Notes: generated by a model from the sequence alone, not told the origin. A stretch of 64,000 nt of DNA from the human T2T-CHM13v2.0 reference genome, Homo sapiens (GCA_009914755.4 CP068257.2:10912001-10976000), one strand, 5' to 3'; shown: positions 40,801 to 62,636, counted from the stretch's first letter. Made by a program: numbers and translations.

Positions 40801-43800
40801 TAAAATACCCCAAATATATATTATATGCTGTACATGAAATATCAAAGTACACAAAATATGTATTATGTACTGTACATACAATATCAAAGGACCCAAAATA
40901 TATATTATATACTGTACATAAAATATCAAAATATCCAAAATATATATTATATACTGTACATAAAATACCAAAGTACCCAAAGTATATATTATATACCGTA
41001 CAAAAAATATCAAAGTAGCCAAAATATGTATTATACACTGTACATAATATATGAAAGTACCCAAACATTTATAATAAACTGTACATAAAATATCAATGTA
41101 CTCAAACTATATATTATGTGCGGTACATAACATATCAAATTACCCATACTATATAGTATATACTGTACTTAAAATATCAAAATATCCAAAATATATATTA
41201 TATACGTTACATAAACTATCAAATACACAAAGTATGTATTATATACTGTACATAAAATAGCAAAGTTCCCAAAATATGTATTATATACTGTACATAAAAT
41301 ATGAAAGTACCCAACCATTTATAATAAACTCTACATAAAATACCAAAGTACCCAAACTGTGTATTATATACTGTCCATAAAATATCAAAGTACCCAAAAT
41401 ATATATTGTAAACTGTACATAAAATATCAAAGTAGCCAAAATATATATTGTATACTGTACATAAAATATAAAATACCCCAAATATATATTATATACTGTA
41501 CATAAAATATCAAAGTACCCATAATACATATTATATACTGTACATAAAATATCAAAGGACACAAAATAAATATTATATACTGTACATAAAATATCCAAAT
41601 ACTCAAAATATATATTACATACTGTACATAAAATATCAAAGTACCCAAATTATGTATTATATACTGTACGTAAATTATCAGAGTACCCAAAATATGCATT
41701 ATATACTGTACATAAAATATGAAATTAACAAAACATTTATAATAAACTGTACATAAAATATCAAAGTACTCAAACTATATATCATATACTGTACATAAAA
41801 TATCAAAGTACCCAAACTGTGTATTATTATATACTGTATATAAAATATCACAGTACCTGAAATATATATTGTATACTGTACATAAAATATCAAAGTACCC
41901 AAAATATATACTATATACTGTCCATAAAATATGAAGGTACATCAAATATATATTATATCCTGTACATAAAATATCAAACTACACCTATTAGATATTGTGT
42001 ACTGTACATAATATATTAAATCCCCCAAATATATATTGTATACTGTATATAAAATATGAAGGTACTTCAAATTCATATTACATGCTGCACATAAAATATC
42101 AAACTACCCAAGGTATGCATTATATACTGTACATAAAATATCAAAGTACACAAATTATATATTATATACTGTACATAAAATATGAAGGTTCATCAAATAT
42201 ATTTTATATTCTGTACATAATATATCAAAGTACATCAAATATATATTATATACGGTACATAAAATATCAAAGTACCAAAAATATGTATTATATACTGTAC
42301 ATAAAATATGAAAGTAACCAAACATTTATAATAAATTGTACATAAAATATCAAAGTACTCAAACTACATATTATATACAGTATATAAAATATCAAAGTAC
42401 ACAAACTGTATATTATATACTGTACATAATATATCAAAGTACCCGAATATATAGCATACTGTACATAAAATATCAAAGTACCCAAAATATATATTGTATA
42501 CTGTACATAAAATATGAAGGTACATCGAAGATATATTATATTGTGTACATAAAATATCAAAGTACACCAAATATATATTATATGCTGTACATAATATATT
42601 AAAGTTGCCCAAATATATATTATATACTGTACATAAAATATGAAGGCACATCAAATATATAGTATATGCTGCACATAAAATATCAAAGTACCCAAAGTAT
42701 GTAATATATACTGTACATAACATATCAAAGTACCAAAAGTATATATTACCTACTGTAAATAAAATATGAAGGTACCACAAATATACATTATATTCTGTAC
42801 ATAAAATATCAAAGTACACCAAATATATACTATATACTGTACATACAATATTAAATTACCCACAATATGTATTGTATTGTGTACATAAAATATGAAAGTA
42901 ACCAAACATTTATAATAAACTGTACATAAAATATCAAAGTACTCAAACTGTATATTATATACTGTACATAAAGTATCAAAGTACCCAAACTGTGTAGTAT
43001 ACACTGTACATAAAATATCAAGGTACCCAAAATATATATTGTAAACTGTAGATACGATATCAAATTACCCAAAATATATATTATATACTGTACATAAAAT
43101 ATGAAGGCACATCCAGTATATATTATATTCTGTGCATAAAATATCAAAGTACACCAAATGTATATTATATACTGTACATAAAATATAAAACTACCCCAAG
43201 TATATATTATATACTCTACATAAAATATGAAAGTACCCAAAATATATATTATATACTGTACATAAAATATCAAAGTACCCATAGTATGTATTATATCCTG
43301 TACATAAAATATGAAGGTACATCAAATATATATTATATTCTGCACATAAAATATCATATTACACCAAATATATATTATATACTGTACATAAAATATGAAG
43401 GTACATCAAATGTATATTATATGCTGCACATAAAATATCAAAGTCCCCAAAGTTTGTATTATATACTGTACATAAAATATCAAAGTATCCAAAGTGTATA
43501 TTATATACTGTACATAAAATATGAAGGTACATCCGATACATATTATATTCTGTACATAAAATATCAAAATACACCAAGTATATATTATATACTGTACATA
43601 AAATATTAAATTACCCGAAATATGTATTGTATACTGTACATAAAATATGAAAGTAACCAAACATTTATAATAAACTGTACATAAAATATCAAAGTACTCA
43701 AACTACATATTATATACAGTATATAAAATATCAAAGTACCCAAACTGTATATTATATACTGTACATACTATATCAAAGTACCCGAATATATAGCATACTG

Positions 43801-45512
43801 TACATAAAATATCAAAGTACCCAAAATATATATTGTACACTGCACATAAAATATGAAGCTACATCAAAGATATATTATATTCTGTACATAAAATATCAAA
43901 GTACACCAAGTATATATTATATGCTGTACATAATATATTAAAGTCGACCAAATATATATTACATACTGTACAAAAAATATGAAGGTACATCAAATATATA
44001 TTATATGCTGCACATAAAATATCAAAGTACCCAAAGTATGTATTATATACTGTACATAAAATATCAAAATACCCAAAGTATATATTATATACTATACATA
44101 CAATATAAAATACCCCAAATATATATTATATGCTGTACATAAAATATCAAAGTACACAAAATATGTATTATGTACTGTACATAAAATATCAAAGGACCGA
44201 AAATATATATTATATACTGTACATAAAATATCAAAATACCCAAAATATATACTATATACTGTACATAAAATACCAAAGTACCCAAAGTATATATTATATA
44301 CCGTACAAAAAATATCAAAGTAGCCAAAGTATGTATTATACACTGTACATAATATATGAAAGTACCCAAACATTTATAATAAACTGTACATAAAATATCA
44401 ATGTACTCAAACTATATATTATGTTCGGTACATAACATATCAAAGTACCCATACTATATAGTATATACTGTACTTAAAATATCAAAATACCCAAAATATA
44501 TATTATATACGTTACATAAATTATCCAATACCCAAAGTATGTATTATATACTGTACTTAAAATAGCAAAGTTCCCAAAATATGTATTATATACTGTACAT
44601 AACAAATGAAAGTACCCAACCATTTATAGTAAACTCTACATAAAATACCAAAGTACCCAAACTGTGTATTATATACTGTCCATAAATTATCAAAGTACCC
44701 AAAATATATATTGTAAACTGTACATAAAATATCAAAGTAGCCAAAATGTATATTGTATACTGTACATAAAATATAAATGTACCCCAAATATATATTATAT
44801 ACTGTACACAAAATATCAAAGTACCCATAATACATATTATATACTGTACATAAAATATCAAAGGACCCAAAATAAACATTATATACTGTACATAAAATAT
44901 CCAAATACTCAAAATATATATTACATACTGTACATAAAATATCAAAGTACCCAAATTATGTATTATATACTGTACGTAAAATATCAGAGTACCCAAAATA
45001 TGCATTATATACTGTACATAAAATATGAAAGTAACAAAACATTTATAATAAACTGTACATAAAATATCAAAGTACTAAAACTATATATCATATACTGTAC
45101 ATAAAATATCAAAGTACCCAAACTGTGTATTATTATATACTGTCCATAAAATATCAAGGTACCTAAAATATATATTGCATACTGTACATAAAATATCAAA
45201 GTACCCAAAATATATACTATATACTGTACATAAAATATGAAGGTACATCAAATATATATTATATCCTGTACATAAAATATCAAAGTACACCTATTATATA
45301 TTGTGTACTGTACATAACATATTAAATCACCCAAATATATATTGTATACTGTATATAAAATATGAAGGTACTTCAAATATATATTATATGCTGCACATAA
45401 AATATCAAAGTACCCAAAGTATGCATTACATACTGTACATAAAATATCAAAGTACACAAATTATATATTATATAATGTACATAAAATATGTAGGTTCATA
45501 AAATATATTTTA
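31813..45512. repeat. HSat1A large block, copy 2 of the 31,812-bp-offset duplication
   Basis: Same evidence as for block 1-13700. The constant offset of 31,812 bp is not a multiple of 42 (31812/42 = 757.4), which is consistent with accumulated small indels inside units. Confidence 0.9.
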
Positions 45513-48500
45513 TATTCTGTACATAATATATCAAAGTACATCAAATATATATTATATACGGTACATAAAATATCAAAGTACCCAAAATATGTATTATTTA
45601 CTGTTCATAAAATATGAAAGTAACCAAACATTTATAATAAACTGTACATAAAATATCAAAGTACTCAATCTACATATTATATACAGTATATAAAATATCA
45701 AAGTACACAAATTGTATATTATATACTGTACATAATATATCAAAGTACCCGAATATATAGCATACTGTACATAAAATATCAAAGTACCCAAAATATATAT
45801 TGTATACTGTACATAAAATATGAAGGTACATCGAAGATATATTATATTGTGTACATAAAATATCAAAGTACACCAAATATATATTATATGCTGTACATAA
45901 TATATTAAAGTTGCCCATGTATACATTTTATACTGTACATAAAATATGAAGGCACATCAAATATATAGTATATGCTGCACATAAAATATCAAAGTACCCA
46001 AAGTATGTAATATATACTGTACATAATATATCAAAGTACCAAAAGTATATATTACATACTGTAAATAAAATATGAAGGTACCTCAAATATACATTATATT
46101 CTGTACATAAAATATCAAAGTACACCAAATATATACTATATACTGTACATAAAATATTAAATTACCCACAATATGTATTTTATTGTGTACATAAAATATG
46201 AAAGTAACCAATCATTTATAATAAACTGTACATAAAATATCAAAGTACTCAAACTGTATATTATATACTGTACATAAAGTATCAAAGTACCCAAACTGTG
46301 TAGTATATACTGTACATAATATATCAAGGTACCCAAAATATATATTGTAAACTGTAGATAAAATATCAAATTACCCAAAATATATATTATATACTGTACA
46401 TAAAATATGAAGGCACATCCAGTATATATTATATTCTGTACATAAAATATCAAAGTACACCAAATGTATATTATATACTGTACATAAAATATAAAAGTAC
46501 CCCAAGTATATATTATATACTCTACATAAAATATGAAAGTACCCAAAATATATATTATATACTGTACATAAAATATCAAAATACCCATAGTATGTATTAT
46601 ATCCTGTACATAAAATATGAAGGTACATCTAATATATATTATATTCTGCACATAAAATATCATATTACACCAAATATATATTATATACTGTACATAAAAG
46701 ATGAAAGTACATCAAATATATATTATATGCTGCACATAAAATATAAAAGTCCCCAAAGTTTGTATTATATTCTGTACATAAAATATCAAAGTATCCAAAG
46801 TGTATATTATATACTGTACATAAAATATGAAGGTACATCCAATACATATTATATTCTGTACGTAAAATATCAAAGTACACCAAGTATATATTATATACTG
46901 TACATAAAATATTAAATTACCCAAAATATGTATTGTATACTGTACATAAAATATGAAAGTATCCAAACATTTATAATAAACTGTACATAAAATATCAAAG
47001 TACTCAAACTGTGTATTATATACTGTACATAAAGCATCCAAGTACCCAAACTGTGTAGCATATACTGTACATAAAATATCAAGGTACCCAAAATATATAG
47101 TGTAAACTGTAGATAAAATATCAAAGTACCCAAAGTATACATTATATACTCTACATAAAATATCAAAATACGCAAAATATATATTGTATACTGTACATAA
47201 AATATCAAAGTATCCAAACTATATATTATGTACTGTACATAAAATATCAAAGTACCCAAAGTGTGTATTATACACTGCATATAAAATATGAAGGTACATA
47301 AAATATATATTGTATTCTGTACATAAAATATCAAATTACACCAAATATATATTATATAGTGTACATAATATATTAAAGTCTACCAAATATATATTATATA
47401 CTGTACATAAAATATGAAGGTACATCAAATATATATTATACGCTGCACATAAAATATCAAAGTACCCAAAGTATGTATTATATACTGTACATAAAATATC
47501 AAAGTACCCAAAGTCTATATTATATACTGTACATAAAATATAAAATACCCCAAATATATATTATATGCTGTACATGAAATATCAAAGTACACAAAATATG
47601 TATTATGTACTGTACATACAATATCAAAGGACCCAAAATATATATTATATACTGTACATAAAATATCAAAATATCCAAAATATATATTATATACTGTACA
47701 TAAAATACCAAAGTACCCAAAGTATATATTATATACCGTACAAAAAATATCAAAGTAGCCAAAATATGTATTATACACTGTACATAATATATGAAAGTAC
47801 CCAAACATTTATAATAAACTGTACATAAAATATCAATGTACTCAAACTATATATTATGTGCGGTACATAACATATCAAATTACCCATACTATATAGTATA
47901 TACTGTACTTAAAATATCAAAATATCCAAAATATATATTATATACGTTACATAAACTATCAAATACACAAAGTATGTATTATATACTGTACATAAAATAG
48001 CAAAGTTCCCAAAATATGTATTATATACTGTACATAAAATATGAAAGTACCCAACCATTTATAATAAACTCTACATAAAATACCAAAGTACCCAAACTGT
48101 GTATTATATACTGTCCATAAAATATCAAAGTACCCAAAATATATATTGTAAACTGTACATAAAATATCAAAGTAGCCAAAATATATATTGTATACTGTAC
48201 ATAAAATATAAAATACCCCAAATATATATTATATACTGTACATAAAATATCAAAGTACCCATAATACATATTATATACTGTACATAAAATATCAAAGGAC
48301 ACAAAATAAATATTATATACTGTACATAAAATATCCAAATACTCAAAATATATATTACATACTGTACATAAAATATCAAAGTACCCAAATTATGTATTAT
48401 ATACTGTACGTAAATTATCAGAGTACCCAAAATATGCATTATATACTGTACATAAAATATGAAATTAACAAAACATTTATAATAAACTGTACATAAAATA

Positions 48501-48699
48501 TCAAAGTACTCAAACTATATATCATATACTGTACATAAAATATCAAAGTACCCAAACTGTGTATTATTATATAGTGTATATAAAATATCACAGTACCTGA
48601 AATATATATTGTATACTGTACATAAAATATCAAAGTACCCAAAATATATACTATATACTGTCCATAAAATATGAAGGTTCATCAAATATATATTATATC

Positions 48700-50858
48700 C
48701 TGTACATAAAATATCAAACTACACCTATTAGATATTGTGTACTGTACATAATATATTAAATCCCCCAAATATATATTGTATACTGTATATAAAATATGAA
48801 GGTACTTCAAATTCATATTACATGCTGCACATAAAATATCAAACTACCCAAGGTATGCATTATATACTGTACATAAAATATCAAAGTACCCAAAGTGTAT
48901 ATTATATACTGTACATAAAATATGAAGTTTCATCAAATATATTTTATATTCGGCACATAAAATATCAAAGTACATCAAATATATATTATATACTGTACAT
49001 AAAATATCAAAGTACCAAAAATATGTATTATATACTGTACATAAAATATGAAAGTAACCATTTATAATAAACTGTACATAAAATATCAAAGTACTCAAAC
49101 TACATATTATATACAGTATATAAAATGTCAAAGTACCCAAACTGTATATTATATACTGTACATAATATATCAAAGTACCCGAATATATAGCATACTGTAC
49201 ATAAAATATCAAAGTACCCAAAATATATATTGTATACTGTACATAAAATATGAAGGTACATGAAAGATATATTATATTCTGTACATAAAATCTCAAAGTA
49301 CACCAAATATATATTATATGCTGTACATAATATATTAAAGTTGCCCAAATATATATTATATACTGTACATAAAATATGAAGGTACATCAAATATATATTA
49401 TATGCTGCACATAAAATATCAAAGTACCCAAAGTATGTATTATATACTGTACATAAAATATCAAAGTACCCAAATTATATATTATATACTGTACATAAAA
49501 TATAAAATACCCCAAATATATATTATATACTGTACATAAAATATCAAAGTACACAAAATATGTATTATATACTGTACATAAAATACCAAAGGACCCAAAG
49601 TATATATTATATACCGTACAAAAAATATCAAAATACCCAAAATATATATCATATACTGTACATAAAATATGAAAGTAACAAATTATTTATAATAAACTCT
49701 ACATAAAATATCAATGTACTCAAACTATATATTATGTGCGGTACACAAGATATCAAAGTACCCATACTATATAGTATATACTGTACTTAAAATATCAAAA
49801 TACCCAGAATATATATTATATACGTTAAATAAACTATCAAATACCCAAAGTATGTATTATATACTGTACATAAAACAGCAAAGTTCCCAAAATATATATT
49901 ATATACTGTACATAAAATATGAAGGAAAATCAAACATATATTATATTCTGTACATAAAATATAAAACTACCCCAAATATATATTATATACTGTACATGAA
50001 ATATAAAACTACCCCAAATATATATTATATACTGTACATAAAATATCAAAGTACCCAAAATATATATTATATACTGTACATAAAATATCAAAGTACACAA
50101 ACTTTATATTATAGAGTGTACATAAAATATCAAAGTAACAAAAATATATATTGTATACTGTAAATAAAATATCAATATACCCAAAATATATATTATGTAC
50201 TGTACATAAAATATCAAAGTACCCAAAATACGTATTATATACTGTACATAAAATATGAAAGTACATCAAATATATATTATATTCTGTATATAAAATATCA
50301 AATTACACCAAATATATTTTATAAATTGTACATGAAATATGAAGGTACATCAAATATATATTATATGCTGCACATAAAATATCAAAGTACTCAAAGTATG
50401 TATTATATATTGTACATAAAATATCAAAGTACTCAAAGTACATATTATATAGTGTACATGAAATATGAAGTTACATCAAATATATATTGTATTCTGTACA
50501 TAAAATATCAAAGTACACTAAATATATATTATATACTGTACTTAAAATATAAAATACCCCAAATATACATTATATACTGTACATAAAATATCAAAGTACC
50601 CAAAATATATATTATATACTGAACTTAAAATATCAAAGGACCCAAAATATATATTATACACTGTATATAAAATACCATAATAAGCAAAATATGTGTCATA
50701 TACTGTACATAAAATATGAAAGTACCCAAACATTTATAATCAACTGTACATAAAATATCAAAGTACTAAAACTATATATTATGTGCTGTATATAAAATAT
50801 CAAAGTACCCATACTATATATTATATACTGTACAAAAAATATCAAAATATATATTATA
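48700..50858. repeat. Degenerating edge of the HSat1A array, next to the alpha-satellite junction
   Basis: The sub-HOR marker pattern breaks down. The 48735 ORF is truncated relative to its paralogues, a novel divergent stretch at 49714-50163 contains 'cggtacacaagatatc' and 'aaataccataataagcaaaatatgtgtcata', and 42-bp units are more variable up to the junction. Confidence 0.6.
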
Positions 50859-51420
50859 TGAATTCCGTGCTTCCAACTAAATCCTCAAAGCAATCCAAAT
50901 ATCCACTTGCAGATTCCACAAAAAGAGGGTTTCAAATCTGCTCTATCAATAGCAAGGTTCAACTCTGTTAGTATAGGACACATATCACCAACAAGTTTCT
51001 GAGAATGCTTCTGTCTACTTTCTATGGGAGGATATTTCCTTTTTCACTGTAGGCGACAAAGCGATCAAATTGTCCATTCCATATACTACAAAAAGTGTGT
51101 TTCAAACCTGCTTTATGAAAGGTAATATTCATCTCTATGTGTTGAATGGAAATATCAGAAAGAAATTGCTGAGAATTCTGCTGTCTACATTTTATATGAA
51201 TTCCCGCTTCCAACGAAATCCTCAAATCAATCCAAATATCCACTTGCAGATTCCACAAAAAGAGTGTTTCAAAACTGCTCTATCAATAGAAAGGTTCAAC
51301 TCTTTTAGTTGAGAACACACATCACAAACAAGTTTCTGAGAATGCTTCTCTCTCGCTTTTATGGGAAGACGTTTCCTTTCCACCAAAGGCATCAAAGTGT
51401 TCCAAATGTCCACTTCCAGA
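50859..51420 (-). repeat. Diverged edge alpha monomers (about 3.3 monomers) in phase with the HOR
   Basis: Aligned by eye to the homologous HOR positions 56469-57030, the first two monomers differ at about 10% of sites. Examples are 'gaattccgtgcttccaactaaatcc' against 'gaattcccgcttccaacgaaatcc', and 'ttgtccattccatatactac' against 'atgtccacttccacaaactac'. The third monomer differs at about 3%. From about 51421 onward identity to the HOR is essentially complete. Confidence 0.75.
51202..51218 (-). promoter_or_regulatory. CENP-B box (17 bp, on the minus strand) in an edge alpha monomer
   Basis: The plus strand reads 'tcccgcttccaacgaaa', the reverse complement of 'tttcgttggaagcggga'. It fits the essential pattern nTTCGnnnnAnnCGGGn. 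Confidence 0.85.
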
Positions 51421-51542
51421 TTCTACCAAAAGAGTGTTTCAAACGTGCTCATAGTAAGGGAATGTTCAACTCTGTGACTTGAATGCAGATATCACCAAGT
51501 AGTTTCTAATAGTGCTTCTGTCTAGATTTTAGATGATGATAT

Positions 51543-51559
51543 TCCCGTTTCCAACGAAA
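51543..51559 (-). promoter_or_regulatory. CENP-B box (recurs every 1,870 bp, e.g. at about 53413 and 55283)
   Basis: The plus strand reads 'tcccgtttccaacgaaa', the reverse complement of 'tttcgttggaaacggga', which is the canonical CENP-B box. Confidence 0.85.
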
Positions 51560-52051
51560 TCGTTAGAGCTATCCAAATGTCCAGTTACAGTTTCTACCAA
51601 AAGGGTGTTTCCAAATTGCTGCATCAAAAGAAAGGTTCAACTCTGTTAGTTGAGGACACACATCACAAAGAAGTTTGTGAGAATGCTTCTGTCTAGATTT
51701 TGTATGACGATATTCCCTTTTCCAACGATATCGTTAAAGCAATCTAAATATCAATTTGCAGAATCCACAAAAATAGAGTTTCAAAGCTGCTCTGTAAAAA
51801 GAAAGGTTCCACTCTGTTAGCTGAGTACACACATCACAAACTTGTTTCTGAGAATCCTTCTGTCTCGTTTTTATGGGAAGATATTTACTTTTCCACCGTA
51901 GGCATCAAAGCGCTCCAAATGTCCACATCCAGATACTCCAGAAAGAGTGTTTCAAACCTGCTCTATGAAAGGGAATCTTCAACTCTATGAGTTGAATGCA
52001 GACATCAGAAAGAAATTTCTGAGAATGCTGCTGTCTACCTTTTATTTGAAT

Positions 52052-52068
52052 TCCCGCTTCCAACGAAA
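52052..52068 (-). promoter_or_regulatory. CENP-B box
   Basis: The plus strand reads 'tcccgcttccaacgaaa'. All essential positions (CCCG...T....CGAA on this strand) are conserved. Confidence 0.85.
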
Positions 52069-52393
52069 TCCTCCAAGCTATCCAAATATCCACCTGCATT
52101 TTCCACAACAAGAGTGTTTCAAAACTGCTCTATCAATAGAAATGTTCAACTCCTTTGGCTGGGTACACACATCACAAACAAGTTTCTGAGAATGCTTCTG
52201 TCTAGTTTTTATGGGAAGACATTCCCTTTTTCACCAAAGGCATCAAAGCGCTCCAAATGTCCACTTCCAGACACTACAAAAAGAGTGTTTCAAACGTGCT
52301 CTAAGAAAACGAATGTTCAACTCTGTGACTTGAATGCAGATATCACAGAGTAGTTTCTGAGAGGGCTTCTGTCTAGATTTTAGATGATGATAT

Positions 52394-52410
52394 TCCCGTT
52401 TCCAACGAAA
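52394..52410 (-). promoter_or_regulatory. CENP-B box
   Basis: The plus strand reads 'tcccgtttccaacgaaa'. Confidence 0.85.
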
Positions 52411-52731
52411 TCATTAGAGCTATCCAAATATCCACTTACAGTTTCTACAAAAAGAGTGTTTCCAAACTGCTGCATCAAAAGAGAGGTTCCACTCTGTTAG
52501 CTGAGTACACACATCACAAACTTGTTTCTCAGAATCCTTCTGTCTCGTTTTTATGGGAAGATATTTACTTTTTCACCGTAGGTATCAAAGCGCTCCAAAT
52601 GTCCACATCCAGATAGTACAGAAAGAGTTTTTCAAACCTGCTCTATGAAAGGGAATCTTCAACTCTATGAGTTGAATGCAGACATCAGAAAGAAATTTCT
52701 GAGAATGCTGCTGTCTACCTTTTATTTGAAT

Positions 52732-52748
52732 TCCCGCTTCCAACGAAA
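52732..52748 (-). promoter_or_regulatory. CENP-B box
   Basis: The plus strand reads 'tcccgcttccaacgaaa'. Confidence 0.85.
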
Positions 52749-53071
52749 TCCTCCAAGCTATCCAAATATCCACTTGCAGATTCCACAAAAAGAGTGTTTC
52801 AAAACTGCTCTCTATCAATGGCAAAGTTCAACTCTGTTAGTTGAGGACACATATCACCAACAAGTTTCTGAGAATGCTTCTGTCTATTTTTTATGGGAAG
52901 ATATTTCCTTTTTCACCGTAGGCGTCAAGGCGATCGAAATGTCCACTTCCACAAACTACAAAAAGAGTGTTTCAAACCTGCTCTATGAAAGGCCATGTTC
53001 ATCTCTATGAGTTGAATGGAAATATCCGAAAGAAATTTCTGGGAATGCTGCTGTCTAGTGTTTATACGAAT

Positions 53072-53088
53072 TCCCGCTTCCAACGAAA
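53072..53088 (-). promoter_or_regulatory. CENP-B box
   Basis: The plus strand reads 'tcccgcttccaacgaaa'. In the next-but-one monomer at about 51715 the homologous site reads 'tcccttttccaacgata', which has lost CCCG and CGAA and so is a dead box. Confidence 0.85.
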
Positions 53089-53290
53089 TCCTCAAAGCAA
53101 TCCAAATATCCACTTGCAGAATCCACAAAAAGAGTGTTTCAAAACTGCTCTATCAATAGAAAGGTTCAACTCTTTTAGTTGAGTACACACATCACGAACA
53201 AGTTTCTGAGAATGCTTCTGTCTGGCTTTTATTGGAAGACGTTTCCTTTTCACCAAAGGCATCAAAGTGCTCCAAATGTCCACTTCCAGA

Positions 53291-55160
53291 TTCTACCAAA
53301 AGAGTGTTTCAAACGTGCTCATAGTAAGGGAATGTTCAACTCTGTGACTTGAATGCAGATATCACCAAGTAGTTTCTAATAGTGCTTCTGTCTAGATTTT
53401 AGATGATGATATTCCCGTTTCCAACGAAATCGCTAGAGCTATCCAAATATCCAGTTACAGTTTCTACCAAAAGGGTGTTTCCAAATTGCTGCATCAAAAG
53501 AAAGGTTCAACTCTGTTAGTTGAGGACACACGTCACAAAGAAGTTTGTGAGAATGCTTCTGTCTAGATTTTGTATGACGATATTCCCTTTTCCAACGATA
53601 TCGTTAAAGCAATCTAAATATCAATTTGCAGAATCCACAAAAATAGAGTTTCAAAGCTGCTCTGTAAAAAGAAAGGTTCCACTCTGTTAGCTGAGTACAC
53701 ACATCACAAACTTGTTTCTGAGAATCCTTCTGTCTCGTTTTTATGGGAAGATATTTACTTTTTCACCGTAGGCATCAAAGCGCTCCAAATGTCCACATCC
53801 AGATACTCCAGAAAGAGTGTTTCAAACCTGCTCTATGAAAGGCAATCTTCAACTCTATGAGTTGAATGCAGACATCAGAAAGAAATTTCTGAGAATGCTG
53901 CTGTCTACCTTTTATTTGAATTCCCGCTTCCAACGAAATCCTCCAAGCTATCCAAATATCCACCTGCATTTTCCACAACAAGAGTGTTTCAAAACTGCTC
54001 TATCAATAGAAATGTTCAACTCCTTTGGCTGGGTACACACATCACAAACAAGTTTCTGAGAATGCTTCTGTCTAGTTTTTATGGGAAGACGTTCCCTTTT
54101 TCACCAAAGGCATCAAAGCGCTCCAAATGTCCACTTCCAGACACTACAAAAAGAGTGTTTCCAACGTGCCCTAAGAAAGCGAATGTTCAACTCTGTGACT
54201 TGAATGCAGATATCACAAAGTAGTTTCTGAGAGGGCTTCTGTCTAGATTTTAGATGATGATATTCCCGTTTCCAACGAAATCATTAGAGCTATCCAAATA
54301 TCCACTTACAGTTTCTACAAAAAGAGTGTTTCCAAACTGCTGCATCAAAAGAGAGGTTCCACTCTGTTAGCTGAGTACACACATCACAAACTTGTTTCTC
54401 AGAATCCTTCTGTCTCGTTTTTATGGGAAGATATTTACTTTTTCACCGTAGGCATCAAAGCGCTCCAAATGTCCACATCCAGATACTCCAGAAAGAGTGT
54501 TTCAAACCTGCTCTATGAAAGGGAATCTTCAACTCTATGAGTTGAATGCAGACATCAGAAAGAAATTTCTGAGAATGCTGCTGTCTACCTTTTATTTGAA
54601 TTCCCGCTTCCAACGAAATCCTCCAAGCTATCCAAATATCCACTTGCAGATTCCACAAAAAGAGTGTTTCAAAACTGCTCTCTATCAATGGCAAAGTTCA
54701 ACTCTGTTAGTTGAGGACACATATCACCAACAAGTTTCTGAGAATGCTTCTGTCTATTTTTTATGGGAAGATATTTCCTTTTTCACCGTAGGCGTCAAGG
54801 CGATCGAAATGTCCACTTCCACAAACTACAAAAAGAGTGTTTCAAACCTGCTCTATGAAAGGCCATGTTCATCTCTATGAGTTGAATGGAAATATCCGAA
54901 AGAAATTTCTGGGAATGCTGCTGTCTAGTGTTTATACGAATTCCCGCTTCCAACGAAATCCTCAAAGCAATCCAAATATCCACTTGCAGAATCCACAAAA
55001 AGAGTGTTTCAAAACTGCTCTATCAATAGAAAGGTTCAACTCTTTTAGTTGAGTACACACATCACGAACAAGTTTCTGAGAATGCTTCTGTCTGGCTTTT
55101 ATTGGAAGACGTTTCCTTTTCACCAAAGGCATCAAAGCGCTCCAAATGTCCACTTCCAGA
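53291..55160 (-). repeat. Alpha HOR copy 2 (variant type b)
   Basis: 1,870 bp downstream of copy 1. Diagnostic variants are 'ttcttccaaaag...gtgctcaaagtaaggg' (55161 onward) and 'gtttccaacgtgccctaagaaagcg'. Confidence 0.85.
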
Positions 55161-57030
55161 TTCTTCCAAAAGAGTGTTTCAAACGTGCTCAAAGTAAGGG
55201 AATGTTCAACTCTGTGACTTGAATGCAGATATCACCAAGTAGTTTCTAATAGTGCTTCTGTCTAGATTTCAGATGATGATATTCCCGTTTCCAACGAAAT
55301 CGTTAGAGCTATCCAAATATCCACTTACAGTTTCTACAAAAAGAGTGTTTCCAAACTGCTGCATCAAAAGAAAGGTTCAACTCTGTTAGTTGAGGACACA
55401 CATCACAAAGAAGTTTGTGAGAATGCTTCTGTCTAGATTTTGTATGACGATATTCCCTTTTCCAACGATATCGTTAAAGCAATCTAAATATCAATTTGCA
55501 GAATCCACAAAAATAGAGTTTCAAAGCTGCTCTGTAAAAATAAAGGTTCCACTCTGTTAGCTGAGTACACACATCACAAACTTGTTTCTGAGAATCCTTC
55601 TGTCTCGTTTTTATGGGAAGATATTTACTTTTTCACCGTAGGCATCAAAGCGCTCCAAATGTCCACATCCAGATACTCCAGAAAGACTGTTTCAAACCTG
55701 CTCTATGAAAGGGAATCTTCAACTCTATGAGTTGAATGCAGACATCAGAAAGAAATTTCTGAGAATGCTGCTGTCTACCTTTTATTTGAATTCCCGCTTC
55801 CAACGAAATCCTCCAAGCTATCCAAATATCCACTTGCATTTTCCACAAAAAGAGTGTTTCAAAACTGCTCTATCAATAGAAATGTTCAACTCCTTTAGCT
55901 GGGTACACACATCACAAACAAGTTTCTGAGAATGCTTCTGTCTAGTTTTTATGGGAAGACGTTCCCTTTTTCACCAAAGGCATCAAAGCGCTCCAAATGT
56001 CCACTTCCAGACACTACAAAAAGAGTGTTTCAAACGTGCTCTAAGAAAGCGAATGTTCAACTCTGTGACTTGAATGCAGATATCACAAAGTAGTTTCTGA
56101 GAGGGCTTCTGTCTAGATTTTAGATGATGATATTCCCGTTTCCAACGAAATCATTAGAGCTATCCAAATATCCACTTACAGTTTCTACAAAAAGAGTGTT
56201 TCCAAACTGCTGCATCAAAAGAGAGGTTCCACTCTGTTAGCTGAGTACACACATCACAAACTTGTTTCTCAGAATCCTTCTGTCTCGTTTTTATGGGAAG
56301 ATATTTACTTTTTCACCGTAGGCATCAAAGCGCTCCAAATGTCCACATCCAGATACTCCAGAAAGAGTGTTTCAAACCTGCTCTATGAAAGGGAATCTTC
56401 AACTCTATGAGTTGAATGCAGACATCAGAAAGAAATTTCTGAGAATGCTGCTGTCTACCTTTTATTTGAATTCCCGCTTCCAACGAAATCCTCCAAGCTA
56501 TCCAAATATCCACTTGCAGATTCCACAAAAAGAGTGTTTCAAAACTGCTCTCTATCAATGGCAAAGTTCAACTCTGTTAGTTGAGGACACATATCACCAA
56601 CAAGTTTCTGAGAATGCTTCTGTCTATTTTTTATGGGAAGATATTTCCTTTTTCACCGTAGGCGTCAAGGCGATCGAAATGTCCACTTCCACAAACTACA
56701 AAAAGAGTGTTTCAAACCTGCTCTATGAAAGGCGATGTTCATCTCTATGAGTTGAATGGAAATATCCGAAAGAAATTTCTGGGAATGCTGCTGTCTAGTT
56801 TTTATATGAATTCCCGCTTCCAACGAAATCCTCAAAGCAATCCAAATATCCACTTGCAGAATCCACAAAAAGATTGTTTCAAAACTGCTCTATCAATAGA
56901 AAGGTTCAACTCTTTTAGTTGAGTACACACATCACAAACAAGTTTCTGAGAATGCTTCTGTCTGGCTTTTATTGGAAGACGTTTCCTTTTCACCAAAGGC
57001 ATCAAAGTGCTCCAAATGTCCACTTCCAGA
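55161..57030 (-). repeat. Alpha HOR copy 3 (variant type c)
   Basis: Diagnostic variants are 'gtggtcgaagtaaggg' (57051-57070), 'ggcgatgttcatctc', 'tagtttttatatgaattccc', 'agactgtttc' and 'tcctttagctgg'. Confidence 0.85.
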
Positions 57031-58896
57031 TTCTTCCAAAAGAGTGTTTCAAACGTGGTCGAAGTAAGGGAATGTTCAACTCTGTGACTTGAATGCAGAT
57101 ATCACCAAGTAGTTTCTAATAGTGCTTCTGTCTACATTTTAGATGATGATATTCCCGTTTCCAACGAAATCGTTAGAGCTATCCAAATATCCAGTTACAG
57201 TTTCTACCAAAAGGGTGTTTCCAAATTGCTGCATCAAAAGAAAGGTTCAACTCTGTTAGTTGAGGACACACATCACAAAGAAGTTTGTGAGAATGCTTCT
57301 GTCTAGATTTTGTATGACGATATTCCCTTTTCCAACGATATCGTTAAAGCAATCTAAATATCAATTTGCAGAATCCACAAAAATAGAGTTTCAAAGCTGC
57401 TCTGTAAAAAGAAAGGTTCCACTCTGTTAGCTGAGTACACACATCACAAACTTGTTTCTGAGAATCCTTCTGTCTCGTTTTTATGGGAAGATATTTACTT
57501 TTCCACCGTAGGCATCAAAGCGCTCCAAATGTCCACATCCAGATACTCCAGAACGAGTGTTTCAAACCTGCTCTATGAAAGGGAATCTTCAACTCTATGA
57601 GTTGAATGCAGACATCAGAAAGAAATTTCTGAGAATGCTGCTGTCTACCTTTTATTTGAATTCCCGCTTCCAACGAAATCCTCCAAGCTATCCAAATATC
57701 CACCTGCATTTTCCACAACAAGAGTGTTTCAAAACTGCTCTATCAATAGAAATGTTCAACTCCTTTGGCTGGGTACACACATCACAAACAAGTTTCTGAG
57801 AATGCTTCTGTCTAGTTTTTATGGGAAGACGTTCCCTTTTTCACCAAAGGCATCAAAGCGCTCCAAATGTCCACTTCCAGACACTACAAAAAGAGTGTTT
57901 CCAACGTGCCCTAAGAAAGCGAATGTTCAACTCTGTGACTTGAATGCAGATATCACAAAGTAGTTTCTGAGAGGGCTTCTGTCTAGATTTTAGATGATGA
58001 TATTCCCGTTTCCAACGAAATCATTAGAGCTATCCAAATATCCACTTACAGTTTCTACAAAAAGAGTGTTTCCAAACTGCTGCATCAAAAGAGAGGTTCC
58101 ACTCTGTTAGCTGAGTACACACATCACAAACTTGTTTCTCAGAATCCTTCTGTCTCGTTTTTATGGGAAGATATTTACTTTTTCACCGTAGGCATCAAAG
58201 CGCTCCAAATGTCCACATCCAGATAGTACAGAGTTTTTCAAACCTGCTCTATGAAAGGGAATCTTCAACTCTATGAGTTGAATGCAGACATCAGAAAGAA
58301 ATTTCTGAGAATGCTGCTGTCTACCTTTTATTTGAATTCCCGCTTCCAACGAAATCCTCCAAGCTATCCAAATATCCACTTGCAGATTCCACAAAAAGAG
58401 TGTTTCAAAACTGCTCTCTATCAATGGCAAAGTTCAACTCTGTTAGTTGAGGACACATATCACCAACAAGTTTCTGAGAATGCTTCTGTCTATTTTTTAT
58501 GGGAAGATATTTCCTTTTTCACCGTAGGCGTCAAGGCGATCGAAATGTCCACTTCCACAAACTACAAAAAGAGTGTTTCAAACCTGCTCTATGAAAGGCC
58601 ATGTTCATCTCTATGAGTTGAATGGAAATATCCGAAAGAAATTTCTGGGAATGCTGCTGTCTAGTGTTTATACGAATTCCCGCTTCCAACGAAATCCTCA
58701 AAGCAATCCAAATATCCACTTGCAGAATCCACAAAAAGAGTGTTTCAAAACTGCTCTATCAATAGAAAGGTTCAACTCTTTTAGTTGAGTACACACATCA
58801 CGAACAAGTTTCTGAGAATGCTTCTGTCTGGCTTTTATTGGAAGACGTTTCCTTTTCACCAAAGGCATCAAAGTGCTCCAAATGTCCACTTCCAGA
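57031..58896 (-). repeat. Alpha HOR copy 4 (type a; 1,866 bp, carries a 4-bp deletion)
   Basis: 'agatagtacagagtttttcaaacc' at about 58221-58244, against 'agatagtacagaaagagtttttcaaacc' in copy 1 at 52611. The loss of 'aaag' shortens the copy to 1,866 bp. Confidence 0.85.
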
Positions 58897-60766
58897 TTCT
58901 ACCAAAAGAGTGTTTCAAACGTGCTCATAGTAAGGGAATGTTCAACTCTGTGACTTGAATGCAGATATCACCAAGTAGTTTCTAATAGTGCTTCTGTCTA
59001 GATTTTAGATGATGATATTCCCGTTTCCAACGAAATCGCTAGAGCTATCCAAATATCCAGTTACAGTTTCTACCAAAAGGGTGTTTCCAAATTGCTGCAT
59101 CAAAAGAAAGGTTCAACTCTGTTAGTTGAGGACACACGTCACAAAGAAGTTTGTGAGAATGCTTCTGTCTAGATTTTGTATGACGATATTCCCTTTTCCA
59201 ACGATATCGTTAAAGCAATCTAAATATCAATTTGCAGAATCCACAAAAATAGAGTTTCAAAGCTGCTCTGTAAAAAGAAAGGTTCCACTCTGTTAGCTGA
59301 GTACACACATCACAAACTTGTTTCTGAGAATCCTTCTGTCTCGTTTTTATGGGAAGATATTTACTTTTCCACCGTAGGCATCAAAGCGCTCCAAATGTCC
59401 ACATCCAGATACTCCAGAACGAGTGTTTCAAACCTGCTCTATGAAAGGGAATCTTCAACTCTATGAGTTGAATGCAGACATCAGAAAGAAATTTCTGAGA
59501 ATGCTGCTGTCTACCTTTTATTTGAATTCCCGCTTCCAACGAAATCCTCCAAGCTATCCAAATATCCACCTGCATTTTCCACAACAAGAGTGTTTCAAAA
59601 CTGCTCTATCAATAGAAATGTTCAACTCCTTTGGCTGGGTACACACATCACAAACAAGTTTCTGAGAATGCTTCTGTCTAGTTTTTATGGGAAGACGTTC
59701 CCTTTTTCACCAAAGGCATCAAAGCGCTCCAAATGTCCACTTCCAGACACTACAAAAAGAGTGTTTCCAACGTGCCCTAAGAAAGCGAATGTTCAACTCT
59801 GTGACTTGAATGCAGATATCACAAAGTAGTTTCTGAGAGGGCTTCTGTCTAGATTTTAGATGATGATATTCCCGTTTCCAACGAAATCATTAGAGCTATC
59901 CAAATATCCACTTACAGTTTCTACAAAAAGAGTGTTTCCAAACTGCTGCATCAAAAGAGAGGTTCCACTCTGTTAGCTGAGTACACACATCACAAACTTG
60001 TTTCTCAGAATCCTTCTGTCTCGTTTTTATGGGAAGATATTTACTTTTTCACCGTAGGCATCAAAGCGCTCCAAATGTCCACATCCAGATACTCCAGAAA
60101 GAGTGTTTCAAACCTGCTCTATGAAAGGGAATCTTCAACTCTATGAGTTGAATGCAGACATCAGAAAGAAATTTCTGAGAATGCTGCTGTCTACCTTTTA
60201 TTTGAATTCCCGCTTCCAACGAAATCCTCCAAGCTATCCAAATATCCACTTGCAGATTCCACAAAAAGAGTGTTTCAAAACTGCTCTCTATCAATGGCAA
60301 AGTTCAACTCTGTTAGTTGAGGACACATATCACCAACAAGTTTCTGAGAATGCTTCTGTCTATTTTTTATGGGAAGATATTTCCTTTTTCACCGTAGGCG
60401 TCAAGGCGATCGAAATGTCCACTTCCACAAACTACAAAAAGTGTGTTTCAAACCTGCTCTATGAAAGGCCATGTTCATCTCTATGAGTTGAATGGAAATA
60501 TCCGAAAGAAATTTCTGGGAATGCTGCTGTCTAGTGTTTATACGAATTCCCGCTTCCAACGAAATCCTCAAAGCAATCCAAATATCCACTTGCAGAATCC
60601 ACAAAAAGAGTGTTTCAAAACTGCTCTATCAATAGAAAGGTTCAACTCTTTTAGTTGAGTACACACATCACGAACAAGTTTCTGAGAATGCTTCTGTCTG
60701 GCTTTTATTGGAAGACGTTTCCTTTTCACCAAAGGCATCAAAGCGCTCCAAATGTCCACTTCCAGA
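58897..60766 (-). repeat. Alpha HOR copy 5 (type b)
   Basis: Carries the same diagnostic variants as copy 2, e.g. 'gtgctcaaagtaaggg' at about 60791 and 'tttcagatgatg'. Confidence 0.85.
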
Positions 60767-62636
60767 TTCTTCCAAAAGAGTGTTTCAAACGTGCTCAAAG
60801 TAAGGGAATGTTCAACTCTGTGACTTGAATGCAGATATCACCAAGTAGTTTCTAATAGTGCTTCTGTCTAGATTTCAGATGATGATATTCCCGTTTCCAA
60901 CGAAATCGTTAGAGCTAAGCAAATATCCAGTTACAGTTTCTACCAAAAGGGTGTTTCCAAATTGCTGCATCAAAAGAAAGGTTCAACTCTGTTAGTTGAG
61001 GACACACATCACAAAGAAGTTTGTGAGAATGCTTCTGTCTAGATTTTGTATGACGATATTCCCTTTTCCAACGATATCGTTAAAGCAATCTAAATATCAA
61101 TTTGCAGAATCCACAAAAATAGAGTTTCAAAGCTGCTCTGTAAAAAGAAAGGTTCCACTCTGTTAGCTGAGTACACACATCACAAACTTGTTTCTGAGAA
61201 TCCTTCTGTCTCGTTTTTATGGGAAGATATTTACTTTTCCACCGTAGGCATCAAAGCGCTCCAAATGTCCACATCCAGATACTCCAGAACGAGTGTTTCA
61301 AACCTGCTCTATGAAAGGGAATCTTCAACTCTATGAGTTGAATGCAGACATCAGAAAGAAATTTCTGAGAATGCTGCTGTCTACCTTTTATTTGAATTCC
61401 CGCTTCCAACGAAATCCTCCAAGCTATCCAAATATCCACCTGCATTTTCCACAACAAGAGTGTTTCAAAACTGCTCTATCAATAGAAATGTTCAACTCCT
61501 TTGGCTGGGTACACACATCACAAACAAGTTTCTGAGAATGCTTCTGTCTAGTTTTTATGGGAAGACGTTCCCTTTTTCACCAAAGGCATCAAAGCGCTCC
61601 AAATGTCCACTTCCAGACACTACAAAAAGAGTGTTTCCAACGTGCCCTAAGAAAGCGAATGTTCAACTCTGTGACTTGAATGCAGATATCACAAAGTAGT
61701 TTCTGAGAGGGCTTCTGTCTAGATTTTAGATGATGATATTCCCGTTTCCAACGAAATCATTAGAGCTATCCAAATATCCACTTACAGTTTCTACAAAAAG
61801 AGTGTTTCCAAACTGCTGCATCAAAAGAGAGGTTCCACTCTGTTAGCTGAGTACACACATCACAAACTTGTTTCTCAGAATCCTTCTGTCTCGTTTTTAT
61901 GGGAAGATATTTACTTTTTCACCGTAGGCATCAAAGCGCTCCAAATGTCCACATCCAGATACTCCAGAAAGAGTGTTTCAAACCTGCTCTATGAAAGGGA
62001 ATCTTCAACTCTATGAGTTGAATGCAGACATCAGAAAGAAATTTCTGAGAATGCTGCTGTCTACCTTTTATTTGAATTCCCGCTTCCAACGAAATCCTCC
62101 AAGCTATCCAAATATCCACTTGCAGATTCCACAAAAAGAGTGTTTCAAAACTGCTCTCTATCAATGGCAAAGTTCAACTCTGTTAGTTGAGGACACATAT
62201 CACCAACAAGTTTCTGAGAATGCTTCTGTCTATTTTTTATGGGAAGATATTTCCTTTTTCACCGTAGGCGTCAAGGCGATCGAAATGTCCACTTCCACAA
62301 ACTACAAAAAGAGTGTTTCAAACCTGCTCTATGAAAGGCCATGTTCATCTCTATGAGTTGAATGGAAATATCCGAAAGAAATTTCTGGGAATGCTGCTGT
62401 CTAGTTTTTATATGAATTCCCGCTTCCAACGAAATCCTCAAAGCAATCCAAATATCCACTTGCAGAATCCACAAAAAGAGTGTTTCAAAACTGCTCTATC
62501 AATAGAAAGGTTCAACTCTTTTAGTTGAGTACACACATCACAAACAAGTTTCTGAGAATGCTTCTGTCTGGCTTTTATTGGAAGACGTTTCCTTTTCACC
62601 AAAGGCATCAAAGCGCTCCAAATGTCCACTTCCAGA
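60767..62636 (-). repeat. Alpha HOR copy 6 (type c)
   Basis: Carries the same diagnostic variants as copy 3, e.g. 'gtggtcgaagtaaggg' at about 62651 and 'tagtttttatatgaattccc' at about 62401. Confidence 0.85.

What the first reader, a model, noticed from the sequence alone, without database searches (positions are those of the whole stretch)
50859..51420. Divergence gradient at the HOR array edge, in phase with the HOR
The first two alpha monomers after the junction are about 10% diverged from the corresponding HOR monomers, the third is about 3% diverged, and everything from 51,421 on is essentially identical to the HOR. The edge monomers are nonetheless in phase with the 11-mer: the offset to the homologous HOR positions is exactly 5,610 bp. 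The first monomer has lost its CENP-B box ('ttccgtgcttccaactaaa'). This suggests the HOR itself extends to the junction but the last few hundred base pairs have escaped homogenisation. That is a compact example of the edge effect expected from unequal-crossover models.
Basis: seen in the sequence. Interest (0 to 1): 0.5.

Follow-up and report, generated by a model that had tools for sequence, protein, structure and literature searches.

The report
Unhomogenised edge of centromeric repeat array
Where a human centromeric alpha-satellite array (the chromosome 13/21 11-monomer repeat) meets a neighbouring AT-rich satellite, the last few hundred bases of both arrays are old, diverged copies, which is a clean but expected example of the known "array edge" effect.

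Summary
The window holds a 42-bp HSat1A array (5-50859) joined to an 1870-bp, 11-monomer alpha-satellite HOR (50861-64000). This HOR matches the published CHM13 chr21 11-mer consensus with 0-2 mismatches per monomer. The first HOR copy is in register with the array. Its identity to the other copies is 90.8% for monomer 1, 86.8-88.0% for monomer 2 and 95.8-96.4% for monomer 3, then falls within the normal within-array range. Private differences run 36/338 bp, then 8/202, then 6/1328, and both steps are significant. Monomer 1 is the only m1-position monomer without a CENP-B box.

About a third of the edge differences are states shared with paralogous monomers. So the edge kept older states that the array has since replaced.

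New here: the HSat1A side shows a mirror gradient. Of 203 tiles of 250 bp, the only five without a ≥96% paralog in the window are the five next to the junction. A relic island of about 2.5 kb therefore straddles the junction.

The phenomenon is well known, so interest is low to moderate. Not tested: classification against a full alpha-monomer library, and comparison with other haplotypes or apes.

The parts
5..48842 (.). Homogenised body of the HSat1A (42-bp, about 77% A+T) array, built of multi-kb near-identical duplications
   Evidence: TRF period 42, 1214 copies. GC is 0.22-0.23. 250-bp tiles have a median best paralog of 99.6% within the window. Duplication offsets are 6740, 16828 and 31812 bp.
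48843..49608 (.). HSat1A intermediate zone: best paralogs only 96-97.6%
   Evidence: The colinear copy at -6740 drops from 100% to 94-98% at 48843. 250-bp tiles score 96.1, 97.6 and 97.2%.
49609..50859 (.). HSat1A unhomogenised edge: no close paralog anywhere in the 50-kb array (94.4, 92.5, 88.8, 90.4, 89.2%)
   Evidence: These are the only five of 203 tiles below 96%, and they are consecutive and abut the junction. Their identity to the 42-bp consensus is ordinary at 0.85-0.93. The last unit has a 9-bp deletion.
50854..50860 (.). Junction between HSat1A and alpha satellite, with TTAT(A)T microhomology. The breakpoint cannot be placed more precisely.
   Evidence: The window reads ...ATATATTATATG|AATTCC. 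The HSat1A unit starts ATTATAT(A), and the HOR m11 end is ...TTTTATTTG|AATTCC.
50861..51032 (-). Edge monomer e1 (m1-type), 90.8% identical to HOR m1. Its CENP-B box is destroyed (TTCCGTGCTTCCAACTAAA at 50863-50881), and it lacks the CT insertion specific to m1.
   Evidence: There are 13 mismatches and 3 gap columns. Of the 16 differences, 5 are states shared with paralogs, 10 are edge-derived and 1 is ambiguous.
51033..51198 (-). Edge monomer e2 (m2-type), 86.8-88.0% identical to HOR m2
   Evidence: Of 22 differences, 8 are shared with paralogs, 10 are edge-derived and 4 are ambiguous. CpG count for e1+e2 is 3, against 8 in m1+m2.
51199..51400 (-). Intermediate zone: e3 (m3, CENP-B box intact) plus the first 34 bp of e4. 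It holds 8 private differences (4%).
   Evidence: In e3, 4 of 7 differences are states shared with paralogs. This zone also carries variants shared with copies 4 and 7 (columns 332, 339, 468).
51401..52728 (-). Rest of HOR copy 1, inside the homogenised pool (0.45% private differences). It is a mosaic of variants shared with copies 2/5, 3/7 and 4/7.
   Evidence: variable-column table. per-monomer identities.
52729..64000 (-). HOR copies 2-7 and the start of copy 8 of the chr13/21 11-mer (D13Z1/D21Z1 type). Copies differ pairwise by 3-30 positions, and the array has a 3-HOR super-period.
   Evidence: The published CHM13 chr21 consensus monomers tile this HOR with 0-2 mismatches each.

Best explanation
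This is the physical end of a human D13Z1/D21Z1-type alpha-satellite HOR array, where it abuts an HSat1A array. On chromosome 21 that is the p-arm side.

The terminal HOR copy is a true in-register copy. Tandem arrays are kept uniform by out-of-register exchange between copies, through unequal sister-chromatid crossover, gene conversion or break-induced replication. Such an exchange can overwrite a site in the outermost copy only if it starts between the junction and that site. That requires a stretch of good homology on the junction side.

The consequences follow from position. The bases nearest the junction are effectively never overwritten. Bases a little further in are overwritten rarely. 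The rest of the copy takes part normally.

The junction-proximal zone therefore keeps older states while the array goes on fixing new variants, and it also accumulates its own mutations. These include loss of CpGs and of the CENP-B box. Growing mismatch then suppresses exchange further.

The same logic applies to HSat1A, whose unit of homogenisation is multi-kb duplication, so its frozen edge is longer (about 1.25-2 kb against about 0.34-0.54 kb).

Shown: the register, the three divergence levels, the retained paralog-like states and the mirror effect. Inferred: the homology-length (MEPS-type) limit, and which recombination pathway acts.
For: - Register and identity levels.
- Density steps are significant.
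- Diagnostic states. e1 carries 6 of 10 m1-specific states and e2 carries 11 of 24 m2-specific states. At 13 of 38 differences the edge has the state shared by paralogs, which means those changes arose in the HOR.
- The right three quarters of copy 1 shares polymorphic variants with copies 2/5, 3/7 and 4/7, so that part is in the exchange pool.
- Mirror effect. The only 5 of 203 HSat1A tiles without a ≥96% paralog are the 5 touching the junction, and an intermediate zone lies before them.
- CpG is 3 against 8 and GC is 35.8% against 39.4% in the edge dimer. The CENP-B box is lost through edge-derived changes.
- HOR identity and its HSat1A flank on the chr21 p-arm side.
- Literature. Central repeats are homogenised more efficiently than those at array ends (PMC5615363). 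[quoted passage not shown] DXZ1 heterogeneity increases away from the core (PMC3966626).
Against: - About 11% divergence (about 6% on the edge lineage alone) is very high for a simple neutral clock if HSat1A invaded the acrocentric short arms only after the orangutan split. Either the mutation rate here is much elevated or the edge monomers were already diverged variants when the junction formed.
- e1 is less diverged than e2, so the trend is not monotonic at monomer resolution.
- Single-monomer phase support is moderate (bootstrap 0.86 and 0.72).
- HSat1A edge units are no further from the family consensus than interior units. On that side the effect is 'left out of recent duplications' rather than visible decay.
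- Only one haplotype was examined.
Confidence: 0.75

Rival explanations
1. Relic of an older layer. The first two monomers, and partly the third, are the truncated remains of an older, already diverged version of the same HOR (a 'dHOR' layer). Later expansions of newer HOR variants pushed it to the edge. The steps at about 51199 and 51400 are then breakpoints of those expansions. They are not the outcome of a position-dependent exchange rate.
For: - Step-like rather than smooth profile.
- A third of the differences are older, paralog-like states.
- Divergence is too high for a simple clock.
- Layered expansion is the accepted picture for human centromeres.
Against: - This rival is not cleanly separable from the best explanation, since both say the edge is not homogenised.
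- Layers are normally tens of kb, not 0.3 kb.
- No other copy of the e1 or e2 signatures was found in public contigs.
- The mirror zone in HSat1A needs a positional cause common to both arrays.
Confidence: 0.15
2. Foreign monomers. 50861-51198 belongs to a different HOR or to a monomeric alpha family that happens to lie next to the array, and the apparent register is coincidental.
For: The margin over the next-best monomer is small (90.8 against 88.4, and 86.8 against 85.0). No full monomer library was available.
Against: - As an adjacent pair only m1-m2 fits; the next-best pair averages about 83%.
- The edge carries m1- and m2-specific derived states.
- The sequence runs seamlessly and in register into m3.
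- The best hits among about 190-210 distinct monomer-length segments in public alpha contigs are m1-type for e1 and m2-type for e2.
- chr21 23/25-mer monomers reach at most 79%.
Confidence: 0.05
3. Local mutagenesis. The junction-proximal bases are diverged because error-prone repair at the time the junction formed, or a persistently mutagenic boundary, added mutations. Lack of homogenisation is not the cause.
For: - 20 of 38 differences are edge-derived.
- Several differences are adjacent pairs, and there are three small indel events.
- Microhomology at the junction suggests end joining.
Against: - It cannot explain the 13 sites where the edge keeps the paralog state and the array is the derived one.
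- It cannot explain why the HSat1A edge is not further from its family consensus yet lacks recent paralogs.
- The diverged zones extend 0.5 kb and 1.25-2 kb, far beyond typical repair tracts.
Confidence: 0.04
4. Assembly or sequencing artefact at a satellite boundary.
For: Satellite boundaries are hard to assemble. No read data were available here.
Against: - 44 ordered, non-random differences, many matching states of paralogous monomers.
- A graded pattern on both sides of the junction.
- The flanking sequence is otherwise clean, with 99-100% repeats.
Confidence: 0.01

Closest known systems
[quoted passage not shown]
   Same: Terminal repeats are less homogenised and more divergent than interior repeats. 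They sit in register with the array and can preserve old variants.
   Different: Here the effect is resolved to the base inside a single terminal HOR copy (about 340 bp strongly diverged, about 200 bp intermediate). It is seen at once in two unrelated satellites that share one junction.
Edge heterogeneity and layered expansion of human alpha-satellite HOR arrays (DXZ1, Schueler 2001 as summarised in PMC3966626; T2T centromere maps, 10.1101/2021.07.12.452052; chr8, PMC8099727)
   Same: Identity to the core HOR falls towards the array edge, and older variants lie outside.
   Different: Those gradients span tens to hundreds of kb and end in monomeric alpha satellite. Here the HOR runs straight into HSat1A with no monomeric layer in the window, and the diverged zone is only about 0.5 kb.
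D13Z1/D21Z1 (alpha21-I, S2C13/21H1L) 11-mer HOR array with its HSat1A flank on the chr21 p-arm side (PMC12385485, PMC13288774)
   Same: It has 11 monomers and 1870 bp. The published CHM13 chr21 consensus monomers match with 0-2 mismatches each. It has the same duplicated monomer type (period 4/7). HSat1A directly flanks the array.
   Different: Chromosome (13 or 21) and haplotype cannot be assigned here. The papers read do not describe the base-level state of the first HOR copy.

Membership tests
Alpha-satellite HOR of chromosomes 13/21 (D13Z1/D21Z1, S2C13/21H1L) | 11 monomers of about 171 bp per unit (about 1.87 kb) | tested here: met
   1870-bp period; one copy is 1866 bp; 11 monomers of 167-173 bp.
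Alpha-satellite HOR of chromosomes 13/21 (D13Z1/D21Z1, S2C13/21H1L) | Sequence identity to the published canonical CHM13 chr21 11-mer consensus | tested here: met
   All 10 published monomer types tile the window consensus contiguously, with 0-2 mismatches each. The 2-5 gap columns per monomer look like text loss from the PDF.
Alpha-satellite HOR of chromosomes 13/21 (D13Z1/D21Z1, S2C13/21H1L) | One monomer type occurs twice in the unit ('cascading' HOR, sub-periods 4 and 7) | tested here: met
   m7 and m11 are 99.4% identical, 4 and 7 monomers apart. PMC12385485 describes the same feature.
Alpha-satellite HOR of chromosomes 13/21 (D13Z1/D21Z1, S2C13/21H1L) | Array flanked by HSat1A on the p-arm side (chr21) | tested here: met
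   The 42-bp satellite abuts the first HOR copy at 50854-50860. The flank is described in PMC13288774.
Alpha-satellite HOR of chromosomes 13/21 (D13Z1/D21Z1, S2C13/21H1L) | Assignment to chromosome 13 or 21, and to a haplotype | not testable with these tools
   No human genome assembly is available to the tools.
HSat1A (SAR) satellite | 42-bp unit, about 77% A+T, long arrays | tested here: met
   TRF period 42, 1214 copies. GC is 0.22-0.23. Description in 10.1101/2021.07.12.452052 and PMC9909926. No direct alignment to the Dfam SAR consensus was possible.
Array-end (edge) effect of tandem-repeat homogenisation | Terminal repeats more diverged from the array consensus than interior repeats, beyond within-array variation | tested here: met
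   10.7% against 0.45% private differences. Fisher p=4e-20.
Array-end (edge) effect of tandem-repeat homogenisation | Terminal repeats are in register with, and derived from, the same repeat unit | tested here: met
   As a pair, the best match is m1-m2. The edge shares m1- and m2-specific states and continues seamlessly into m3. Single-monomer bootstraps are only 0.86 and 0.72.
Array-end (edge) effect of tandem-repeat homogenisation | Edge keeps older states that the array has replaced | tested here: met
   At 13 of the 38 e1+e2 differences and 4 of the 7 e3 differences, the edge state equals the state of paralogous monomers. The polarisation relies on paralogs, not on an outgroup species.
Array-end (edge) effect of tandem-repeat homogenisation | Effect is positional, so it should also appear in the neighbouring array at the same junction | tested here: met
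   The only 5 of 203 HSat1A tiles with a best paralog below 96% are the 5 next to the junction.
Array-end (edge) effect of tandem-repeat homogenisation | Edge states are old and shared among haplotypes or orthologous junctions | not testable with these tools
   The e1 and e2 signature words are absent from the metagenome, prokaryote-genome and viral contig collections. No human or ape assemblies are available.
Alpha-satellite monomer classes (HumAS-HMMER / suprachromosomal families) | Best-scoring monomer class for 50861-51198 | not testable with these tools
   No monomer-class library is available. The substitute tests were public alpha contigs and the chr21 23/25-mer monomers.

The most novel reading that the evidence does not exclude
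The two frozen zones that meet at one junction (about 0.34-0.54 kb in an array homogenised in 1.87-kb units, about 1.25-2 kb in an array homogenised in multi-kb units) may give a direct, base-resolution readout of the minimum homology needed for satellite homogenisation. They may also show how that minimum scales with the unit of exchange. If the zone length proved constant or lawful across all array ends in complete genomes, recombination parameters of human satellites could be measured from sequence alone. The edge relics could also be used to date junctions and to reconstruct ancestral HOR states.
Probability: 0.15. Interest if true: 0.55.

Novelty: new member of a known kind. Interest (0 to 1): 0.25.

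Why it matters
This is a tidy, base-level illustration of a textbook prediction: the ends of tandem arrays escape concerted evolution. It occurs at a clinically relevant centromere type (chromosomes 13/21).

Its practical value is modest.
- The relic dimer and the HSat1A relic form a unique-sequence anchor inside otherwise repetitive DNA. That helps with assembly validation and read mapping.
- The relics preserve older states of the HOR.
- The two-sided pattern suggests a simple genome-wide survey of array ends to estimate homology limits of satellite recombination.

It does not change what is known about centromere function.

Tried and rejected
- I first read the 5-monomer similarity (m3~m8, m4~m9, m5~m10) as a pentameric SF3 HOR and considered D1Z5 of chromosome 1, which is also a 1866-bp 11-mer. 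I rejected this because the published chr21 11-mer consensus matches almost exactly and chr21 has the HSat1A flank.
- I searched for other copies of the edge monomers. The e1 24-mer was searched in metagenome, prokaryote-genome and viral contigs, and the e2 24-mer in prokaryote genomes. All gave zero hits. This is uninformative about other human haplotypes. It argues only weakly against e1/e2 being a high-copy family, because the m1-specific word found 73 contigs.
- The long metagenome contigs that looked like possible array edges turned out to be chimeric short-read assemblies. They jump between this HOR and 79-89% alpha, or to non-alpha sequence, so they give no independent edge.
- Some contig segments matched e1 slightly better than canonical m1 does (92.4% over 157 bp). 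These were partial alignments at chimera joints.
- Identity of HSat1A units to the 42-bp consensus showed no gradient. The edge effect on that side appeared only when I measured the best paralog instead.
- A 500-bp tile at 16359 with a 92% best paralog was a duplication-breakpoint artefact. It resolves to 98-99.6% with 250-bp tiles.
- The transition/transversion ratio of the edge differences (15:19) is no different from that of ordinary variants within the array (13:20 by my count from the table), so it discriminates nothing.

Full report
WHAT IS IN THE WINDOW

Tandem Repeats Finder reports two arrays. One is a 42-bp satellite from 5 to 50846 (1214 copies, about 80% matches). The other is a 171-bp satellite from 50871 to the end of the window. 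GC content is 0.22-0.23 in the first and 0.39 in the second. The 42-bp, about 77% A+T repeat fits the description of HSat1A, formerly called SAR.

The 171-bp repeat is alpha satellite, read on the strand opposite to the usual one. On this strand the CENP-B box appears as TCCCGYTTCCAACGAAA.

THE HIGHER-ORDER REPEAT (HOR)

Ungapped self-comparison shows an 1870-bp period. Copies start at 50861, 52729, 54599, 56469, 58335, 60205, 62075 and 63945. One copy is 1866 bp because of a 4-bp deletion.

The unit has 11 monomers.
- m7 and m11 are 99.4% identical.
- m1, m3, m5, m8 and m10 carry a CENP-B core.

The canonical 11-mer consensus published for T2T-CHM13 chromosome 21 (PMC12385485, Table S1) tiles the window's HOR consensus contiguously. 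Each monomer has only 0-2 mismatches. The few gap columns look like letters lost in PDF extraction. That paper also describes the duplicated monomer type, which gives sub-periods 4 and 7.

A 2026 study of chr21 centromeres states that the HOR array is flanked by HSat1A on the p-arm side (PMC13288774).

So the window is the end of a human D13Z1/D21Z1-type array where it meets HSat1A. On chromosome 21 that flank lies on the p-arm side. I could not tell chromosome 13 from chromosome 21.

I first suspected D1Z5 of chromosome 1, which is also a 1866-bp 11-mer. The consensus match and the HSat1A flank rule that out.

CHECKING THE OBSERVATION

I aligned the seven full-length copies and compared copy 1 with each of the others, monomer by monomer.

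| Monomer position | Identity of copy 1 to copies 2-7 |
|---|---|
| m1 | 90.8% |
| m2 | 86.8-88.0% |
| m3 | 95.8-96.4% |
| m4 | 95.3-98.8% |
| m5-m11 | 96.4-100% |

The m5-m11 values are no different from the spread among copies 2-7 themselves.

Counting only differences private to copy 1 gives three density levels.

| Zone | Private differences | Density |
|---|---|---|
| 50861-51198 | about 36 in 338 bp | 10.7% |
| 51199-51400 | 8 in 202 bp | 4% |
| 51401-52728 | 6 in 1328 bp | 0.45% |

The other copies have 0-8 private differences per 1870 bp. Both steps are significant by Fisher tests (p=0.005 and p=1e-4).

The CENP-B core occurs five times in every copy except copy 1. There the m1 box reads TTCCGTGCTTCCAACTAAA: one inserted base and two substitutions, and both essential halves are hit.

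- Monomer 2 is 12-13% diverged and monomer 3 about 4%.
- Three small indel events (net -2 bp) put the start of m1 at 50861 (offset 5608). The 5610 offset is exact only from 51199 onward.
- 5610 is 3 x 1870. It is the best offset because the array has a three-HOR super-period. Copies 2 and 5 differ at 3 positions and copies 4 and 7 at 14. Copy 1 shares variants with copies 4 and 7.

IS THE EDGE REALLY IN PHASE?

Taken singly, the answer is only moderately firm.
- e1 matches m1 at 90.8% and m3 at 88.4%.
- e2 matches m2 at 86.8% and m11 at 85.0%.
- Column bootstraps give 0.86 and 0.72.

Taken as an adjacent pair, only m1-m2 fits. The next-best adjacent pair averages about 83%.

At sites where m1 differs from its closest paralogs, e1 carries the m1 state at 6 of 10. 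e2 carries the m2 state at 11 of 24. The alignment runs without any phase shift into m3.

I could not run a full monomer library, so I used substitutes.
- A word specific to HOR m1 retrieved 73 public metagenome contigs carrying human alpha satellite, about 200 kb in all. Many are chimeric with other alpha families at 79-89% identity.
- Among about 190-210 distinct monomer-length segments in them, the best matches to e1 are m1-type and the best matches to e2 are m2-type. None exceeds 92.4% (partial alignment) for e1 or 88.5% for e2.
- The 23 monomers of the other chr21 HOR reach at most 79%.
- Words specific to e1 and e2 occur nowhere in the metagenome, prokaryote-genome or viral collections.

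WHICH LINEAGE CHANGED?

I used the paralogous monomers of the same HOR as a rough outgroup.

| Monomers | Differences | Edge state = paralog state | Array state = paralog state | Ambiguous |
|---|---|---|---|---|
| e1+e2 | 38 | 13 | 20 | 5 |
| e3 | 7 | 4 | 3 | 0 |

An example of the first class is that e1 lacks the CT insertion that marks m1. The CENP-B box changes belong to the second class.

So the array has fixed new states that the edge never received, and the edge has also accumulated its own changes. The edge dimer has 3 CpGs against 8 in the array, and 35.8% GC against 39.4%.

The right three quarters of copy 1 shares polymorphic variants with different subsets of the other copies. That part is inside the exchange pool.

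A MIRROR EFFECT IN HSat1A (NEW)

Identity of HSat1A units to the 42-bp consensus shows no trend towards the junction. The array is, however, built of multi-kb duplications that are 99-100% identical, at offsets 6740, 16828 and 31812 bp.

The best within-window paralog of each tile tells a different story. At 250-bp resolution the median is 99.6%. Only five of 203 tiles fall below 96%, and they are the five consecutive tiles touching the junction:
- 49609: 94.4%
- 49859: 92.5%
- 50109: 88.8%
- 50359: 90.4%
- 50609: 89.2%

An intermediate zone at 96-97.6% precedes them, from 48843.

The junction is thus flanked on both sides by sequence that has not taken part in recent homogenisation. This relic island, about 2.5 kb long, runs from roughly 48843 to 51400.

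The junction itself has a short TTAT(A)T microhomology, and the last HSat1A unit carries a 9-bp deletion.

MECHANISM

The best explanation is the classical edge effect. Out-of-register exchange can overwrite a site in the outermost copy only if it begins between the junction and that site.

The bases nearest the junction are therefore never replaced. Those slightly further in are replaced rarely. The rest is replaced as often as any interior copy.

The requirement for a minimum length of good homology, and the further suppression of exchange by accumulating mismatches, are inferences from general knowledge of homologous recombination. I did not test them here.

The longer frozen zone in HSat1A fits its larger unit of duplication.

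The data do not separate unequal crossover, gene conversion and replication-based mechanisms.

A close rival holds that the first dimer is a truncated remnant of an older layer of the same HOR. This differs mainly in emphasis.

WHAT DOES NOT FIT

About 11% divergence is far too much for an ordinary neutral rate if HSat1A spread onto the acrocentric short arms only after the orangutan split. Either the local mutation rate is much raised or the edge monomers were already diverged variants when the junction formed.

Foreign origin, local mutagenesis and assembly artefact are all poorly supported (see the rival explanations).

COMPARISON WITH WHAT IS KNOWN

Several sources state the general effect:
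- Repeats at array ends are homogenised less efficiently than central ones. This is in reviews citing McAllister and Werren 1999 (PMC5615363).
- Heterogeneity of DXZ1 rises away from its core (PMC3966626).
- Layered expansion is the current model for human centromeres.

This finding is an instance of that known kind. Two things are a little unusual. The effect is compact: it sits inside one terminal HOR copy, with no monomeric alpha layer in the window. It is also visible in two unrelated satellites that meet at one junction. I found no description of this particular junction in the papers I read.

VERDICT

The phenomenon is well known, so interest is low to moderate (0.25).

The most useful follow-ups are comparison with other human haplotypes and ape orthologues, a proper monomer-class assignment, and a genome-wide survey of array ends.

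Noticed in passing
window 5-48842: The HSat1A array is not a simple 42-bp array. It is made of multi-kb blocks repeated at 99-100% identity, at offsets of 6740, 16828 and 31812 bp (and others). This is a large-scale duplication structure laid over units that are only about 89% identical to their consensus.
   Followed up: partly
window 52729-63944: The alpha HOR copies show a three-HOR super-period (5606/5610 bp). Copies 2 and 5 differ at 3 positions, copies 4 and 7 at 14, and copies 3 and 6 at 16. Neighbouring copies differ at 15-30 positions, except copies 5 and 6, which differ at 9. This suggests recent duplication of a block of three HORs.
   Followed up: partly
window about 58227 (copy 4, 56469-58334): A 4-bp deletion makes this one HOR copy 1866 bp instead of 1870 bp. 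It is not shared by copies 1 or 7, which otherwise share variants with copy 4.
   Followed up: no
HOR monomers m5, m6, m10 (for example 53408-53751 and 54261-54431): m10 looks like a hybrid. Its first half resembles m5 and its second half is nearly identical to m6. This implies an old unequal exchange between monomers in the history of the 11-mer. m7 and m11 are 99.4% identical.
   Followed up: partly
window 50829-50860: The last HSat1A unit has a 9-bp deletion (GTACCCAAA missing). The junction has a 4-6 bp TTAT(A)T microhomology with the end of HOR monomer m11. This is compatible with a microhomology-mediated join.
   Followed up: partly
loci L001-L073 (public metagenome contigs): 73 metagenome contigs, including human-gut, marine and soil samples, contain this human chr13/21 HOR at 99-100% identity. 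This is presumably human DNA contamination. Many are chimeric joins to other alpha families (79-89%) or to non-alpha sequence.
   Followed up: partly
window 52218-52390 (monomer 9 of copy 1): Three private differences cluster in this one monomer of the otherwise homogenised part of copy 1 (52221, 52309, 52348). This is unexplained and may be chance.
   Followed up: no
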